DNA of 64,000 nt from Anolis carolinensis (Eukaryota): the NCBI RefSeq assembly GCF_035594765.1, contig NC_085846.1, positions 51,633,190 to 51,697,189 on the forward strand, given 5' to 3'. Of this stretch, positions 13,200 through 25,604 are shown piece after piece. Below the pieces are notes generated by a model. That model saw nothing but the letters and a program-made list of their open reading frames with translations. It was not told the DNA's origin and did not search any database. The first letter of the stretch is position 1; each line of letters opens with the position of its first letter. A program made the translations under genes and the position numbers.

Positions 13200-15230
13200 T
13201 TAGGATGGGCCAAAAGCTTGGTCCCACATCCAGGTCTTCAGCTGCTTCCTAAAAGACATGAGTGAGGGGGCTTCCCTAATCTCCCTTGGCAAGGAGTTCC
13301 ACAGCCGCGGAGCCACCACCGAAAAAGCCCTGTCCCTCGTTCCAGCCAAATGCACCTGTGACGGCGGCGGGACCGAGAGCAGGGCCTCACTGGAAGATCT
13401 TAATCTGCGGGGCGGCTCATAGGGGGAGATACATTCGGAGAGGTAAGTTGGACCAGAGCCGTTTAAGGTTTTGTAGGCCAAAGCCAGCACTTTAAATTGT
13501 GCCCGGAAGCTAACAGGCAGCCAGTGGAGCTGCTTCAACAGAGGAGTTGTATGCTCCCTGTACGGCGCTCCAGTTAATAACCTGGCTGCGGAACGTTGGA
13601 CTAGTTCCAGCTTCCGAACAGTCTTTGAAGGCAACCCCACGTAGAGCGCATTGCAATAGTCCAAACGAGATGTAACCAGAGCGTGGACCACCGTGGCCAT
13701 GTCAGGCTTCCCAAGGTATGGGCGCAGTTGGCGCACAAGTTTGAGTTGTGCGAAGGCCCCCCTGGCCACCGCCGAAACCTGGGGTTCCAGGCTCAGCGAT
13801 GAGTCCAGGAGGACACCCAAACTGCGAACCTGCGCCTTCAGGGGGAGTGCGACCCCATCCAGCACAGGCTGTAACCCTATACCCTGTTCGGCCTTACGAC
13901 TGACCAGGAGGACCTCTGTCTTGTCTGGATTCAACTTCAATTTGTTCGCCCTCATCCAGTCCGACACAGCAGCCAGGCACCGGTTCAGGATCTGGACGGC
14001 CTCCTTGGAAGCTGGAGAAAAGGAGTGATAGAGCTGGACATCATCTGCGTACAGATGACACCGAACTCCAAAACTCCGGATGATCTCACCCAGCGGCTTC
14101 ATGTAGATGTTAAACAACAAAGGGGACAGTACTGAACCCTGTGGGACTCCACAAGACAACGGTTGTGGAGCCGAACAGCTGTCCCCTATCAACACCTTCT
14201 GGGTACGGTCCTCAAGGAAGGACTGGAGCCACTGCAATGCAGTTCCCCCAAGGCCCATTCCCACGAGGCGACCCAGAAGGATACCGTGGTCTACGGTATC
14301 GAAGGCTGCTGAGAGATCCAGGAGAACCAGCAGGGACACACTCCCCCTGTCGAGCTCTCTGCGGAGATCATCCACCAAGGAGACCAAGGCCGTCTCAGTT
14401 CCATGCGCCGGTCTGAAGCCAGACTGTGCCGGATCCAGATAATCAGTTGCTTCCAAGAATCCCTGGAGTTGCGAGGCAACCACGCGTTCCACAACCTTGC
14501 CCAAAAAGGGGAGATTGGAAACAGGCCGAAAGTTATTCCAATTAGTGGGGTCAAGTGATGGCTTCTTCAACAGCGGTTTTATTACGGCTTGTTTGAGGCC
14601 GGCTGGAAGTCTGCCTTCCCGGAGGGAGGCGTTCACCACCACTCTTACCCACTCGACCAACCCCCCTCTGGCTTCTTTAACCAGCCAGGATGGGCAGGGG
14701 TCTAGGATGCATGTGGTCGCTCTCGCTTCTCCAAGGACCTTGTCCACATCCTCGGGTTGCACAGATTGAAATGAATCCATCAAAATAGGACAAGCAGGTG
14801 CTCTTGCTACATCTTCGGAGATTGCATCAACTGTGTTGTCAAGCTCGGAACGAATCAAAGCGATTTTCTTTGAAAAGAACTGGGAAAAAGCTTCACATTT
14901 CTCTGCCACATCATCTGTGGGCGCAGTTTGAGGGGTGTTGTTAAGCAGCCCTCTGACAGTTCTAAAAAGCTCGGCAGGACGGTTTTTGGCTGCCTCAATT
15001 CTAGAACTATAATAGGTTTTTTTTACAGCAGCCATTGCTTTGCAATATATTTTCCTTTGGGCTTTAACCCGTTCTAAATTTGATTCGCTCCGTCGCTTTC
15101 GCCACACACGCTCTAGACGCCTCGTCTCGCGCTTCATCGCTGCCAACTCCCCGGAGAACCAGGGCGCTAGTTTAGCTCTGCGCATTGCGAGGGGCCGCTC
15201 TGGAGCGATCGTGTCTATTGCCCTGGCCAT
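13200..15230 (-). CDS. L2 ORF2 reverse transcriptase portion (frame open from about 15272)
   Basis: 676 aa with RT motifs FRPVSNLPFLGK, QSGFR, LLDLSAAFDTVDH, GVPQGSVLSP, YADD, KLNPDKTE. Confidence 0.95.
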   Translation of the reverse strand: MARAIDTIAPERPLAMRRAKLAPWFSGELAAMKRETRRLERVWRKRRSESNLERVKAQRKIYCKAMAAVKKTYYSSRIEAAKNRPAELFRTVRGLLNNTPQTAPTDDVAEKCEAFSQFFSKKIALIRSELDNTVDAISEDVARAPACPILMDSFQSVQPEDVDKVLGEARATTCILDPCPSWLVKEARGGLVEWVRVVVNASLREGRLPAGLKQAVIKPLLKKPSLDPTNWNNFRPVSNLPFLGKVVERVVASQLQGFLEATDYLDPAQSGFRPAHGTETALVSLVDDLRRELDRGSVSLLVLLDLSAAFDTVDHGILLGRLVGMGLGGTALQWLQSFLEDRTQKVLIGDSCSAPQPLSCGVPQGSVLSPLLFNIYMKPLGEIIRSFGVRCHLYADDVQLYHSFSPASKEAVQILNRCLAAVSDWMRANKLKLNPDKTEVLLVSRKAEQGIGLQPVLDGVALPLKAQVRSLGVLLDSSLSLEPQVSAVARGAFAQLKLVRQLRPYLGKPDMATVVHALVTSRLDYCNALYVGLPSKTVRKLELVQRSAARLLTGAPYREHTTPLLKQLHWLPVSFRAQFKVLALAYKTLNGSGPTYLSECISPYEPPRRLRSSSEALLSVPPPSQVHLAGTRDRAFSVVAPRLWNSLPREIREAPSLMSFRKQLKTWMWDQAFGPS

Positions 15231-15271
15231 CTCCCCATTGTAGAGAGTGACCAGAGCATCAACAGAATCAC

Positions 15272-16570
15272 CTACCCAATCACATCCCCAAGAGCCATCA
15301 GGAATCCATTTGGATCCATAAGCCTCCTGGGGCGGACCATCTTAATGGGTCCACCACCCCCGCGGAGGTTAGGGGTTGCAGTAATTCTAAACTTGACCAA
15401 GTGGTGGTCAGTCCATGACAGTGGGACTAACGAGAGCTCTTCCACACCACCACCATTCTCCCATCCCTGGCAAAATACCAAGTCCAATGTATGTCCAGCA
15501 CAGTGGGTAGGGCCAGAAATCACTTGGGACAGTCCCATGGTTGCCATGGTATCCATGAAAACCTGAGCCGCTCCCGACAGGGTGGTCTCTGCATGTATGT
15601 TGAAGTCTCCCAGCACAAGAAGCCGCTGAGACTCCAACACCAAGCTCGAGATCACCCTGGCTAGCTCAGTCAGGGAGTTTGTAGTGTTGCGGGGTGGACG
15701 GTACACTACAAATATCCCTATACTGTCCCGGTCTCCTACCCGCAGGTGGACGCTTTCAAATGAGGTAGATTGCGGGATGAGGCATCTGGTCACGGGGATA
15801 GAATCCCTATAGATTATTGCAACCCCACCTCCCCTCCCTCCGGATCTTGGCTGGTGCTGAACAGAGTAACCTGGAGGACAGAGCTGAGTGAGGTTAGGCC
15901 CACCCGACTCGTCCAACCAGGTTTCTGTTATACAAGCCAGGTCTGCTCGCTCTTCTAATATCAGATCACTTATAGTGGTTGTTTTCCCATTAACTGATCT
16001 GGCATTCAACAGCACCAGCTTTAATCCATCAGGTCCGCCATCCCGGATACCCAGACTCACCTTGTCAGGAGACCCTTTTGGAATACGTTTTGGAACTAAT
16101 AATGATCTCTGAAAGTCCCTAGGCCCAATTAACACATTTGGTCTCCTTTTCCCGTACCTCCCTTTTCCTATAACCGTCCCAATGGCGACTCCATGGCTGG
16201 CAGAACTCCCCCCATCCTCTGCACATCCCCCACTCTCCTCCCCTGACCATTGTTTAGCTGGGTCAGCCTGACTGGGCCAATTGAACAAGCCAGATGGTGG
16301 CACTTCCCACCCTCTTCCCACCCCCCTTACATAGTCTCCAAAACCCTCCAACACTCCCCCCTCCCCTTTTACATTCACATCCACGTTCCAATTACTGAAA
16401 GTGACCTGTGCAGAGGAATGGGAGATATTGTAAAAGCAGAATCCTAGTAACAGTTGGAGGCTATAAAGTGCACAGTACATAAGTAACAATAAAACTAAGG
16501 GGCTGGAGGAGCCAATCCTATATCTAAAGTGCCTATCTGTTAAATACATTGAATAAATTTCTATTGCCAA
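15272..16570 (-). CDS. L2 ORF2 N-terminal extension + apurinic-like endonuclease; out of frame with RT
   Basis: APE motifs LNARS, ITETWL, GGGVA, VYRPP, GDFN, LDLVF, WTDH; ends at TAG 15274-15272 where the RT frame takes over. Confidence 0.92.
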   Translation of the reverse strand: MAIEIYSMYLTDRHFRYRIGSSSPLVLLLLMYCALYSLQLLLGFCFYNISHSSAQVTFSNWNVDVNVKGEGGVLEGFGDYVRGVGRGWEVPPSGLFNWPSQADPAKQWSGEESGGCAEDGGSSASHGVAIGTVIGKGRYGKRRPNVLIGPRDFQRSLLVPKRIPKGSPDKVSLGIRDGGPDGLKLVLLNARSVNGKTTTISDLILEERADLACITETWLDESGGPNLTQLCPPGYSVQHQPRSGGRGGGVAIIYRDSIPVTRCLIPQSTSFESVHLRVGDRDSIGIFVVYRPPRNTTNSLTELARVISSLVLESQRLLVLGDFNIHAETTLSGAAQVFMDTMATMGLSQVISGPTHCAGHTLDLVFCQGWENGGGVEELSLVPLSWTDHHLVKFRITATPNLRGGGGPIKMVRPRRLMDPNGFLMALGDVIG

Positions 16571-17074
16571 AAAACCAATCTGGTTCCGGAGGGCAGTCCC
16601 GATCAGTGATTACAACACTACCACATTTTAACATTAGGTTAGCAGCCACACAGGATTTTTAGCAGCTATACAGTACTGCTCTCAACTTCCCAGTCACAAG
16701 AGGATTGACGGCTCAGTTTAACAAAGACAAATTAAGGGTCCAACCAAATTTAGATTAAATTCTGGCAATGGGTCTAACCCCAGAAGTCAGCCAGTGGTGG
16801 TAATAGCTATGGTATGGGCCCAGCCCAGAAATTCCCAAAGTCTCAATCCCTTGACAGGCTGCCAGATGCAAAAAGATGTGATAAGATGTGAACAGCTGAA
16901 GATGAGCCCAAGGACAAACCAGTAGGCCACTCTTCGTAGCAGGCCGAGGGGCAGAGGGAATGGTAGGGCTGAGAACGCGAATATTTTAAAGCCAGCTGCT
17001 CTGCCTTCTTCTCCAGAATGTTTATGTAGTTTATGTAGTTTTAAAAGTTTTCCCCTCTCTCTTTCCTCCTTACA

Positions 17075-18342: not shown

Positions 18343-19271
18343 ACTATACTATAAGATTGCAATATGGTGCATATTTATCTATGAGTTGCAGAGTAGGTAT
18401 GTACAGTAGTGCACTGTAGGCAATTTGATTGTTCTAGAGCCAACACAGGCTGAAGAATTTTGCATACAATGTTTCTTTCTATTCAGCATTTATGTCTATT
18501 GATGGTAAATAAGGAGTTCACCTTGTCCTAGAGCTATTCTGTTCCAAGAATGAAAAATGTGAAATTTCCAGTATAAGAAGTGGCTATGAATTATATATGG
18601 TTTCCATTATGGCTGAGCAACATTAAAAAGCACTCTGGAGAACAAGAGAGTTACTGTTTGTTGGGTATGAAAAGAGAAGTAGTGCCCTGCATAACTTTTG
18701 CCCTAACAATGGATAACATACTATTTAAGATCTTAGTAAGTGGTACATTTTGCATTCTGAAAGAAAAATACCAGATGCACAACTTGAGATCTGCATTATA
18801 TTAGCAAGAAAACAAAATGCTTTTCTTCTATATTTCCAGCTGAGATAGCTGTTTACTGCCTCACAGACCAAGAAACAGATCTGACAACTAATCAAACAGT
18901 CTAATTTACCCAAGATTATAGCTGTAATTATGGGAAGCCTAGATCTGTAGGAAAATCAGGCACAGTCACAACAGTAGCATCATGAGGTGCCTGCATTTTA
19001 AAGAATGGCTCCTTAATTTGCTTATGTTTTCTTAATACATTCTGTTTTTAGGAAAATAAGGGGGAATGTAATAGCATTGCCACTATTGTTCAACATTGCT
19101 ATTATTCTAAATGATTATCAAGACTCTGAACCTCAGCAGTAGTGGCTGATGGTTCCCATAGCTGAGCCCATGCATGCATTCTAGGTTTTCCAATATAATT
19201 AAAGGAACTTCCCAAGGTACTGAATCTACTGAAGAATAGTATTTAGTATCTTAGAGGCCTACCTTGAAGCC

Positions 19272-19530
19272 GGAGCCCCCAATGACATAGTGGACTAAAG
19301 CCTCGTGACTTGAAGGTTGGGTTGCTGACCTGAAAGCTGCCAGGTTCGAATCCCACTCGGGGATGAGCTCCCTCTATCAGCTCCAGCTCCATGTGGGGAC
19401 ATGAGAGAAGCCTCCAACAAGGATGGTAAAAACATTAAAACATCCGGGCGTCCCCTGGGCAATGTCCTTGCAGACGGCCAATTCTCTCACTCCAGAAGCG
19501 ACTAAAAAAAAAACACACAAAAAAACAACA
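19272..19530 (+). mobile_element. tRNA-derived SINE (third family; tail probably Vingi/Ingi-type)
   Basis: B-box ggttcgaatccc; A-rich tail; 11-bp TSD acct(t/c)gaagcc at 19261-19271 and 19531-19541; second copy at 25331-25598. The partner LINE is an inference. Confidence 0.85.
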
Positions 19531-24408: not shown

Positions 24409-25323
24409 TGTTACGAGTCAGACGCCAGCCAATATAACTAACTCACTTTATTGCAAAAACAACACAAAAGAGCCTAGAAAACAACCAAAAAGGGCTCAAA
24501 ACACTTTCTCTTCAGTGTGTGTAATAACAATGTCCAAAAAGAACTCAAAAACGGGATATAATTCGGATTATCCTGGGAAATAATCCGGATTAAAACAAAC
24601 TACGCCGAAACGGCTGGAAACTCACTCCACCTACTTGTTGGAGCTTAGCAAACAGGAAAGCTATCAGAAACAACCCGCAGCAACCAGCGGCCACACCGTG
24701 CCCTGAAAGTCATTGTGAAGCCAAATCCGCGTCGAAGAGGAGATGTCACAGCCGCCACATCCGGTCTGCGTCGTTAGGGAGCACCGAATCCCAGTCCAAG
24801 GTCAACACAAAGAGCCAAAGCGATGGAGGCAAGCCGGCAGGTCCCAAAGCAGTCTTCCAAATATGTCTTCTGAAATAGAGATCCCGAAAGTGCCCAACAA
24901 ACACCTTGCCGATAGCAAGGTTACATTAGCAACAAACTTACTTTTTGCTGCAAATCCTCATCGGAGCTGGAGTCGCCCAACGCCCCAGCTGCTGCCCTTC
25001 TACGATCTCTCCAGCCAGTCCACCTTCTATCCAAACCCATAAGTCCCCAGGATCCAGCTGTATCTTCGCTGTGCCATCCCTCAAATGTACCACTGCTTGT
25101 GGGTTCCTCAAAAATATCCCGGATCTCTTGAACCTTAGTCCAATCCATCTCTTCACTCCCAGAGTCTGGCATCCCATCCTCCTGACTCCCAGCCCCATAA
25201 TCCCCTTCAAAACCCTCAAAGGAATAATCATCAGTGGGTTCCATAAGTATTTCCCGGATTTTCTACATTTGTTGCTCTTCATTGGAGTCTTGCTCACGAG
25301 TAGTTTTCCTGCCTCTTCTAACA
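24409..25323 (-). mobile_element. Solo LTR (probably Gypsy/Ty3-like), 915 bp
   Basis: TGTTA...TAACA inverted termini; minus-strand AATAAA at 24452-24447 near the end; CpG-rich; no adjacent PBS or PPT. A matching TSD was not found. Confidence 0.75.
24921..25322 (-). pseudogene. LTR-encoded acidic reading frame with two FxG[F/W] motifs (one internal TAG at 25265-25263; ATG-started part 25244-24921)
   Basis: Frame reads VRRGRKTTREQDSNEEQQM*KIREILMEPTDDYSFEGF...KVQEIRDIFEEPTSSGTFEGW...DSSSDED from LTR base 2. Confidence 0.55.
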
Positions 25324-25330
25324 CAACTAG

Positions 25331-25598
25331 TTTTTTTTTTCGTGTCAGGAGCAACTGGAGTTGCTTCTGGAGTGAGAGAATTGGCCATCTGCAAGGACAT
25401 TGCCCAGGGGACGCCCGGATGTTTTGATGTTTTATCATCCTTGTGGGAGGCTTCTCTCATGTCCCCGCATGGAGCTGGAGCTGAAATAGGGAGCTCATCC
25501 ACACTCTCCCTGGCTGGGATTCGAACCTGGCAGCTTTCAGGTCAGCAACCCAACCTTCAAGTCACGAGGCTTTTATCCCATTGGCCACCGGAGGCTCC
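25331..25598 (-). mobile_element. tRNA-derived SINE, same family as 19272-19530
   Basis: Reverse-complement match; ends ctcctgacacg(A)n on the minus strand. Confidence 0.88.
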
Positions 25599-25604
25599 GG
25601 AGCC

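What the first reader, a model, noticed from the sequence alone, without database searches (positions are those of the whole stretch)
24921..25322. Solo LTR encodes two tandem LEDGF/p75-binding-like (IBM/TIM) motifs: candidate retrotransposon chromatin-tethering module
Seen in the sequence: on the minus strand one frame runs from LTR base 2 to 24921 with a single TAG. It contains KIREILMEPTDDYSFEGF (25262-25209) and, 45 codons later, EIRDIFEEPTSSGTFEGW (25127-25074), embedded in D/E/S-rich linkers. Established knowledge: TFIIS-N-terminal-domain interacting motifs (IBM/TIM of CDCA7L/JPO2, MLL1, POGZ, IWS1) consist of an amphipathic helix, an acidic CK2-phosphorylated linker and FxGF. They bind LEDGF/p75, HRP2 and related domains, and LEDGF targets lentiviral integration. 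From memory, JPO2 motif 1 is EVADIFNAPSDDEEFVGF, which has the same spacing as both LTR motifs; this should be verified. Inference: because the frame is open at the LTR edge, it may be the tail of Pol/integrase reading through the PPT into the 3' LTR, or an LTR-borne peptide. Either way the element may mimic host TIMs to steer integration towards transcribed chromatin. I am not aware of this being described for vertebrate LTR retrotransposons.
Basis: partly seen in the sequence, partly recalled or inferred. Interest (0 to 1): 0.85.

Follow-up and report, generated by a model that had tools for sequence, protein, structure and literature searches.

The report
Lizard retrotransposon integrase tail mimics LEDGF-binders
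This stretch is a dead solo copy of a lizard retrotransposon end-repeat whose reading frame, in intact sister elements, is the tail of the integrase; the tail sits where relatives have a chromodomain and carries a conserved short motif that likely docks on LEDGF/HRP2, the host proteins HIV uses to insert into active genes.

Summary
In detail: both motifs and the TAG are at the stated coordinates. The LTR edge was misplaced: this copy is a truncated solo LTR (24409-25331) of an Anolis Ty3/Gypsy chromovirus-lineage family, and its TAG is private (0 of 33 other LTRs). In young sister families Pol reads through the polypurine tract into the 3' LTR in this same frame (26 of 27 junctions in phase), giving a ~140-residue integrase tail where relatives carry a chromodomain. 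Motif 1 is under purifying selection across families (differences by codon position 38/10/117). The best PDB match of a sister-family motif is the LEDGF-JPO2 motif-1 structure 6EMO (E 0.056). Co-folding with anole LEDGF gave weak support only (0.43 vs control 0.01). Against: the window family's three own junctions are all decayed and out of phase, motif 2 is less canonical and lineage-restricted, and binding and insertion bias are untested. A separate Podarcis lineage has two similar motifs behind a retained chromodomain. Verdict: a real coding integrase tail; likely a TIM mimic; gene-body targeting plausible but unshown. Not found in print.

The parts
24409..25331 (-). Solo LTR remnant of an Anolis Ty3/Gypsy (chromovirus-lineage) family, sense on the minus strand; the first 31 nt are lost and it has internal deletions (923 nt vs about 1,080-1,520 nt in other copies)
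   Evidence: 1,078 first-look candidates genome-wide; median pairwise identity of 33 copies 90%
24921..25331 (-). Fossil of the LTR-encoded C-terminal tail of Pol/integrase (same phase as the read-through frame of sister families)
25263..25265 (-). Private stop codon in this copy
   Evidence: 0 of 33 other complete LTRs have a stop at this codon or the next; at the codon before, 32 sense and 1 gap
25209..25262 (-). TIM/IBM-like motif 1 (amphipathic helix, 8-residue acidic linker, FEGF), shared by all families of the clade except L108
25074..25127 (-). TIM-like motif 2 (helix, S/T-rich 8-residue linker, FEGW), found only in the window's sub-lineage
24447..24452 (-). AATAAA near the LTR 3' end, likely the poly(A) signal; orients the LTR and puts the frame in U3
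   Evidence: sequence; function inferred
25332..25600 (.). Poly(T)-tailed SINE abutting the truncated LTR end (Sauria-SINE-like; name recalled)
   Evidence: inverted copy at 19270-19503 (I12/I17/I18)

Best explanation
The frame is the fossil, in a dead solo LTR, of an integrase C-terminal tail that intact sister elements encode by reading Pol through the polypurine tract into the 3' LTR, and its conserved helix-acidic-FxGF motif likely binds the TFIIS-N-terminal domain of LEDGF or HRP2, which would tether the integration complex to H3K36-methylated, transcribed chromatin in place of the lost chromodomain. Shown: the read-through in sister families, the absence of a chromodomain, purifying selection on the motif. 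Inferred: read-through in the window's own family, retention of the tail on mature integrase. Predicted: binding. Untested: insertion bias.
For: Read-through: 26 of 27 sister junctions have the LTR's first base at one fixed distance from the integrase GPY/F region, putting LTR base 2 in the Pol frame; 20 of 27 are open up to the motif; elements with 100%-identical LTRs carry a 1,214-codon Pol ending about 140 codons inside the LTR. Pfam: protease-RT-RNase H-integrase-Tf2-type SH3, no chromodomain, whereas 5 of the 9 homologues returned (Podarcis and unnamed records) carry PF00385 there. Own-family integrases group with the sister families (SH-aLRT 92, quick tree). Selection: motif 1 differences by codon position 38/10/117 over 200 codon pairs among five family representatives; A1 vs A2 (both two-motif) pN 0.06, pS 0.64; 6 synonymous and 0 replacement differences between A1 and A2 in motif 1 vs 23 and 34 outside the motifs; shared indels are multiples of three in 3 of 3 cases in the frame vs 1 of 19 in the rest of the LTR (Fisher p 0.0026). 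Likeness: top hit among 177,635 PDB sequences for a family-C motif is LEDGF IBD-JPO2 M1, 6EMO (E 0.056); second hit with a 14-sequence profile (E 0.1). The review PMC9987994 says all known LEDGF/HRP2 TND partners carry FxGF. Co-fold of anole LEDGF 401-488 with a natural family-A1 motif-1 peptide: weak support, 0.43 vs best control 0.01, runs agree in at least 77% of contacts, partner pLDDT at least 63; the mark was reached by 51 of 78 solved and 2 of 108 mismatched pairs, at 0.60 or under by only 5 of the 78 and by all 4 passing mismatches; a like complex is solved, so it may be memory. Similar paired motifs recur in a separately placed Podarcis lineage behind a retained chromodomain (P0008, P0282, P0283, P0187).
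Against: All 3 internal-bearing copies of the window's family found (of 5 matches, the other two belong to other families) are out of phase at the junction, each by a different lesion, and have many other breaks, so read-through is not seen in this family itself. Within-family shared substitutions give omega 0.66, not significant (p 0.15). PDB E-values are not significant, and the window's own 113-residue peptide did not retrieve any TIM structure; the profile's top hit was unrelated. Motif 1 of this family has L where JPO2 has F; motif 2 ends FEGW, has a weakly acidic linker, 5 replacement vs 7 synonymous differences and is absent from families B and C. The divergent family L108 reads through in frame but lacks FxGF, and read-through tails also occur in chromodomain-bearing families without any TIM, so read-through alone implies nothing about targeting. 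U3 sequence also has DNA-level constraints. No binding, expression or insertion-site data.
Confidence: 0.5

Rival explanations
1. The tail is a real integrase extension and the motif binds LEDGF/HRP2 or another TND protein (TFIIS, ELOA, MED26, IWS1, PNUTS), but the job is nuclear retention, protection from degradation or help to the element's own transcription, with little effect on where it inserts.
For: TIMs bind many TNDs with graded selectivity (PMC9987994). The 1,393 junctions of families B and C look evenly spread at coarse scale: the first 100 listed cover 132 Mb, 7.2% of sites in 7.1% of the genome. The co-fold cannot tell family members apart.
Against: The tail occupies the position of the chromovirus targeting domain (plant CR motif precedent, PMC3059260); coarse evenness says nothing on genes versus intergenic DNA.
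Confidence: 0.2
2. The conserved part is a bipartite nuclear-localisation signal with an acidic spacer (as on Ty1 integrase; recalled) or a ligand of some other acidic-aromatic-peptide reader; the likeness to JPO2 is coincidence.
For: Two basic clusters about 13 residues apart precede the motif in all families and are themselves conserved (pN 0.03-0.28). PDB E-values are above 0.05. L108 keeps the basic clusters but not FxGF.
Against: An NLS does not need the invariant FEGF nor the i, i+3, i+4 hydrophobic helix at the JPO2 spacing; the motif was duplicated in this sub-lineage and recurs in pairs in Podarcis elements without the basic clusters in front; co-fold controls scored 0.00-0.01. The two roles can coexist.
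Confidence: 0.22
3. In the window's own family the frame had already been uncoupled from Pol and was either a relic carried along in a non-autonomous derivative or a separate short protein from the ATG at LTR base 8.
For: 3 of 3 own-family junctions are out of phase; the ATG is in frame in nearly all complete copies; solo LTRs vastly outnumber internal-bearing copies.
Against: The three lesions differ from each other and lie in copies with many other breaks; purifying selection acted between A1 and A2; U3 lies upstream of the LTR's own start of transcription (inferred), so a stand-alone protein lacks an obvious mRNA.
Confidence: 0.08

Closest known systems
Host TND-interacting motifs / IBD-binding motifs (JPO2/CDCA7L motif 1, PDB 6EMO; IWS1 6EMR; KMT2A 6EMQ; POGZ 6EMP)
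   Same: Helix, 8-residue acidic linker, FxGF at the JPO2 M1 spacing; tandem TIMs are known in JPO2, SPT6, LEO1, IWS1 (PMC9987994).
   Different: Encoded by a mobile element inside its LTR; binding not measured; motif 2 ends in W. POGZ is a transposase-derived host protein with such a motif (entry title), the nearest precedent from a transposon.
Chromoviruses (Ty3/Gypsy, Tf2/sushi-like) with an integrase chromodomain
   Same: Gag with Ty3-type capsid and zinc knuckle, Pol order PR-RT-RH-IN, GPY/F and Tf2-type SH3 domain; closest relatives carry PF00385.
   Different: No chromodomain; integrase continues about 140-160 codons into the 3' LTR with an acidic motif-bearing tail.
Plant centromeric retrotransposons, CRM group A (CR motif)
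   Same: Chromodomain position filled by an unrelated targeting sequence encoded in the 3' LTR by read-through (PMC3059260 passages).
   Different: Different clade and host; CR motif targets centromeres and its partner is unidentified in that paper; no sequence likeness was tested here.
Lentiviral integrase-LEDGF/HRP2 tethering
   Same: Same proposed host domain and outcome, insertion in transcribed gene bodies (PMC9987994).
   Different: Lentiviral integrase binds through folded domains (own knowledge), not a linear TIM; non-lentiviral retroviral integrases did not bind LEDGF (PMC1802576, abstract start in listing).

Membership tests
Solo LTR of an LTR retrotransposon | TG...CA ends, target-site duplication, linked to an internal region elsewhere | tested here: met
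   Family copies: TG...CA and 5-bp TSD exact in 24 of 32; PPT and integrase upstream in L049/L057. The window copy itself lacks one end and its TSD.
Ty3/Gypsy (Metaviridae) | Pol order protease-RT-RNase H-integrase, Ty3-type Gag | tested here: met
   on sister element L095; own-family L057 matches it at 58-82% in pieces
Chromovirus lineage | GPY/F motif and Tf2-type SH3 after the integrase core; grouping with chromodomain-bearing elements | tested here: met
   PF24626; clade of 19 rows with chromodomain-bearing squamate elements, support 97 (quick tree)
Chromovirus lineage | Chromodomain at the integrase C-terminus | tested here: not met
   no PF00385 in P0001 at E up to 0.1; present in relatives
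TIM / IBM | Short amphipathic helix anchored by F/V/L/I | tested here: met
   sequence pattern conserved in natural copies; helix itself not measured
TIM / IBM | Acidic linker of 8-16 residues with S/T | tested here: met
   motif 1: 8 residues, 4 of them D/E in most copies; motif 2: 8 residues but only 2 D/E (range from PMC9987994)
TIM / IBM | FxGF (needed for LEDGF/HRP2) | tested here: met
   motif 1 FEGF invariant in the 14 aligned peptides; motif 2 has FEGW, a variant
TIM / IBM | CK2 phosphorylation of the linker | not testable with these tools
   S/T followed by acidic residues in motif 1 of most copies; not in motif 2
TIM / IBM | Binds a TND | tested here: inconclusive
   co-fold weak support, 0.43 vs 0.01, like complex solved
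Integrase targeting domain | Biases insertion to a chromatin class | not testable with these tools
   no gene annotation or ChIP data held for G000

The most novel reading that the evidence does not exclude
Squamate chromoviruses use the stretch behind the integrase SH3 domain, often the 3' LTR itself, as a swappable cassette of host-mimicking chromatin motifs: one Anolis lineage traded its heterochromatin-reading chromodomain for LEDGF/HRP2-binding TIMs and so inserts, like HIV but through a linear motif, into transcribed gene bodies; a Podarcis lineage gained TIMs separately; another Anolis family carries an HMGN-like nucleosome motif there instead.
Probability: 0.35. Interest if true: 0.9.

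Novelty: new variant of a known kind. Interest (0 to 1): 0.74.

Why it matters
LEDGF tethering of integration is documented for lentiviruses; for LTR retrotransposons it has been proposed in flies without interaction data (PMC10018349 passages). A conserved JPO2-like motif on the integrase of a vertebrate Gypsy element with over a thousand young copies would be the first concrete retrotransposon ligand for the TND, and a case of convergent mimicry of a host motif. It is directly testable: short peptides against a small domain, and one genome holding both TIM-bearing and chromodomain-bearing young families for a side-by-side insertion-site comparison. It would also mean that many vertebrate 'solo LTRs' are fossils of protein-coding tails.

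Tried and rejected
PBS-based pattern search for full-length own-family elements: 9 matches, none with an internal region. PPT-based search: 17 rows at 11 places, 1 with integrase. Within-family dN/dS: uninformative, as expected for post-insertion decay. Pfam found nothing in the LTR frame. PDB search with the window's whole peptide: only unrelated hits; with the tail of the chromodomain family: none. ESM Atlas with the tail: no usable hit, which shows neither absence nor novelty. Library-wide phmmer found the tail itself only in 2 records, both of this Anolis clade by sequence; among 159 proteins examined, 156 with a GPY/F motif, the pattern hit 6, of which P0153 and P0214 were set aside as unconvincing or chimeric. 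Sequencing runs: no RNA holder listed; all 20 holders are one organism. The careful tree did not finish; the quick tree was used and no one-clade test was run, so separate origins are suggested, not shown. The origin of P0187 stays unknown (unnamed Logan record). Earlier findings of the scan: nothing. Tesina et al. 2015 was not held. The Passer paper had no mention of such a motif. A gene-versus-intergenic test from flanking DNA was considered and dropped as underpowered without annotation.

Full report
What is in the window. The minus-strand frame 25322-24921 has 134 codons, one internal TAG and both motifs at the coordinates given. A search of the window's genome found 1,078 candidate copies, 40 scored. 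Aligning 30 of them fixes the element at window 24409-25331. In the other copies it runs 31 nt further to a TG...CA end with 5-bp target duplications (exact in 24 of 32). The TAG is private: 33 of 33 other complete LTRs have a sense codon there. Many complete copies are open from base 2 for about 156-162 codons (17 of 33, plus one of 173). A pattern for helix, acidic linker and [FY]xG[FW], written after seeing the motifs, hits only these two places in 127,996 six-frame residues of the window and 4 of 20,000 shuffles. Protein names returned by searches place the genome in Anolis carolinensis. The window copy itself, a solo LTR without its ATG and with a stop, encodes nothing; Pfam on 111 of the window's 139 long frames found only a LINE.

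What the LTR belongs to. A purine-tract pattern found one copy with a Gypsy integrase upstream. Searching with that junction returned sister families. In 26 of 27 sister loci the LTR starts at one fixed distance from the integrase GPY/F region, which puts LTR base 2 in the Pol frame, and 20 of 27 are open through the motif. Full-length sisters are 6.3 kb with LTR pairs up to 100% identical and a 1,214-codon Pol that ends about 140 codons inside the 3' LTR; families B and C have 1,393 exact PPT-LTR junctions. Pfam gives Ty3-type Gag and PR-RT-RH-IN-SH3 (Tf2 type) with no chromodomain, while 5 of 9 homologues returned carry a chromodomain at that place. In a quick tree of the RNase H-integrase region, own-family integrases group with the sisters (support 92) inside a squamate chromovirus clade (the careful search did not finish). 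For the window's own family only three junctions were recovered; all are out of phase, each by a different lesion, in copies with many other breaks. Read-through in this family is therefore inferred.

Selection. Within the family, substitutions are mostly neutral decay: shared variants give omega 0.66 (p 0.15), though with 0 shared stops against 2-5 in control frames. Shared indels are multiples of three in 3 of 3 cases in the frame and 1 of 19 outside (p 0.0026; most loci were picked by likeness to the frame, a bias to note). Between families, using the 39 copies with unbroken frames, motif 1 differs at codon positions 1/2/3 in 38/10/117 of 200 codon pairs; dN/dS over the whole tail is 0.22-0.40 for the nine distant pairs and 0.62 for the close pair B1-B2; between the two two-motif subfamilies motif 1 has pN 0.06 and pS 0.64, or 6 synonymous and 0 replacement differences against 23 and 34 outside the motifs; motif 2 has 7 and 5 (A2 has only 3 copies). 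So the tail was protein-coding, also in the window's own lineage, and motif 1 is its most constrained part.

Is it a TIM? The review PMC9987994 (parts 1-2 of 6 and passages read) defines TIMs as an obligate helix anchored by F/V/L/I, an acidic linker of 8-16 residues and an optional FxGF that all known LEDGF and HRP2 partners carry. Motif 1 meets these. Co-folding anole LEDGF residues 401-488 with a natural A1 motif-1 peptide gave weak support: 0.43 against 0.01 for the best of 3 controls, at least 77% contact agreement, partner pLDDT at least 63; that mark was reached by 51 of 78 solved and 2 of 108 mismatched pairs, at 0.60 or under by only 5 of the 78 and all 4 passing mismatches; peptides are untested and a like complex is solved. 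Motif 2 is weaker: FEGW, two acidic residues, absent from families B and C, which keep only its helix.

Wider picture. Podarcis elements P0008, P0282, P0283 and unnamed P0187 keep the chromodomain and carry two similar motifs between it and the PPT; the quick tree places them apart from the Anolis clade, which suggests, without a one-clade test, separate gains. A divergent Anolis family (L108) reads through in frame but lacks FxGF. Another young Anolis family keeps the chromodomain and its LTR-encoded tail usually ends in RRSARIA, close to the HMGN nucleosome motif RRSARLSA (PMC12487698 passages). Read-through tails are thus common in this clade and carry different motifs.

Mechanism. Most likely Pol is translated into U3 of the 3' LTR, integrase keeps a disordered tail with basic clusters (possibly an import signal) and one or two TIMs, and the TIM docks on LEDGF or HRP2 bound to H3K36-methylated nucleosomes, placing the integration complex in transcribed chromatin. 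Shown: read-through in sisters, loss of the chromodomain, selection. Inferred: read-through in this family, tail retention. Predicted: binding (about 0.65). Untested: insertion bias (about 0.4 overall).

What is known. LTR-encoded targeting domains at the chromodomain position are described for plant CRM group A elements (PMC3059260 passages). Ty3 tethers to TFIIIB through a chromodomain-like region (bioRxiv 10.1101/2021.07.27.453949 passages). Fly LTR elements prefer H3K36me3 regions and a LEDGF-like tether was proposed without interaction data (PMC10018349 passages). The TND review names only lentiviral integrases under viral mimicry and has no mention of transposons. Searches (listings and abstract starts) showed no report of a TIM/IBM in a retrotransposon integrase; subscription papers and repeat-library notes are not covered, and no supplements were read.

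Verdict. A real, selected, LTR-encoded integrase tail with a JPO2-like motif in a vertebrate Gypsy clade; a new variant of integrase targeting tails if binding holds. Interest 0.74.

Noticed in passing
L109-L120, integrase to 3' LTR: A second young, high-copy Anolis chromovirus family keeps its chromodomain and also reads Pol into the LTR; the tail ends in RRSARIA in most of the 12 loci (RRSLRIA or similar in others), resembling the HMGN acidic-patch motif. Podarcis P0004 has RRSARL near its end.
   Followed up: partly
P0008, P0282, P0283, P0187: Podarcis (and one unnamed) Gypsy Pols with a chromodomain followed by two TIM-like motifs upstream of the PPT: heterochromatin reader and active-chromatin motif on one integrase.
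   Followed up: partly
L108:1322-1954: Divergent family with integrase in frame with the LTR tail; helix and acidic stretch present, FxGF absent.
   Followed up: partly
L057:6359-6994: An LTR of the chromodomain family is nested in the 5' LTR of the own-family element and happens to continue its frame.
   Followed up: no
L094:1322-5764: In this copy gag and pol lie in one 1,480-codon frame, while other copies have overlapping gag and pol frames.
   Followed up: no
L095, just inside the 5' LTR: No TGG-type primer-binding site follows the LTR; priming may be tRNA-independent as in Tf1-like elements (recalled).
   Followed up: no
L100:1501-2049: Intronless PSIP1 (LEDGF) copy with a stop inside the TND, likely a processed pseudogene.
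   Followed up: partly
P0133: A RefSeq 'uncharacterized' Anolis gene model is a chimera of LINE-like sequence and this LTR tail.
   Followed up: no
window 13203-16609, minus strand: LINE with long open endonuclease and reverse-transcriptase frames.
   Followed up: no
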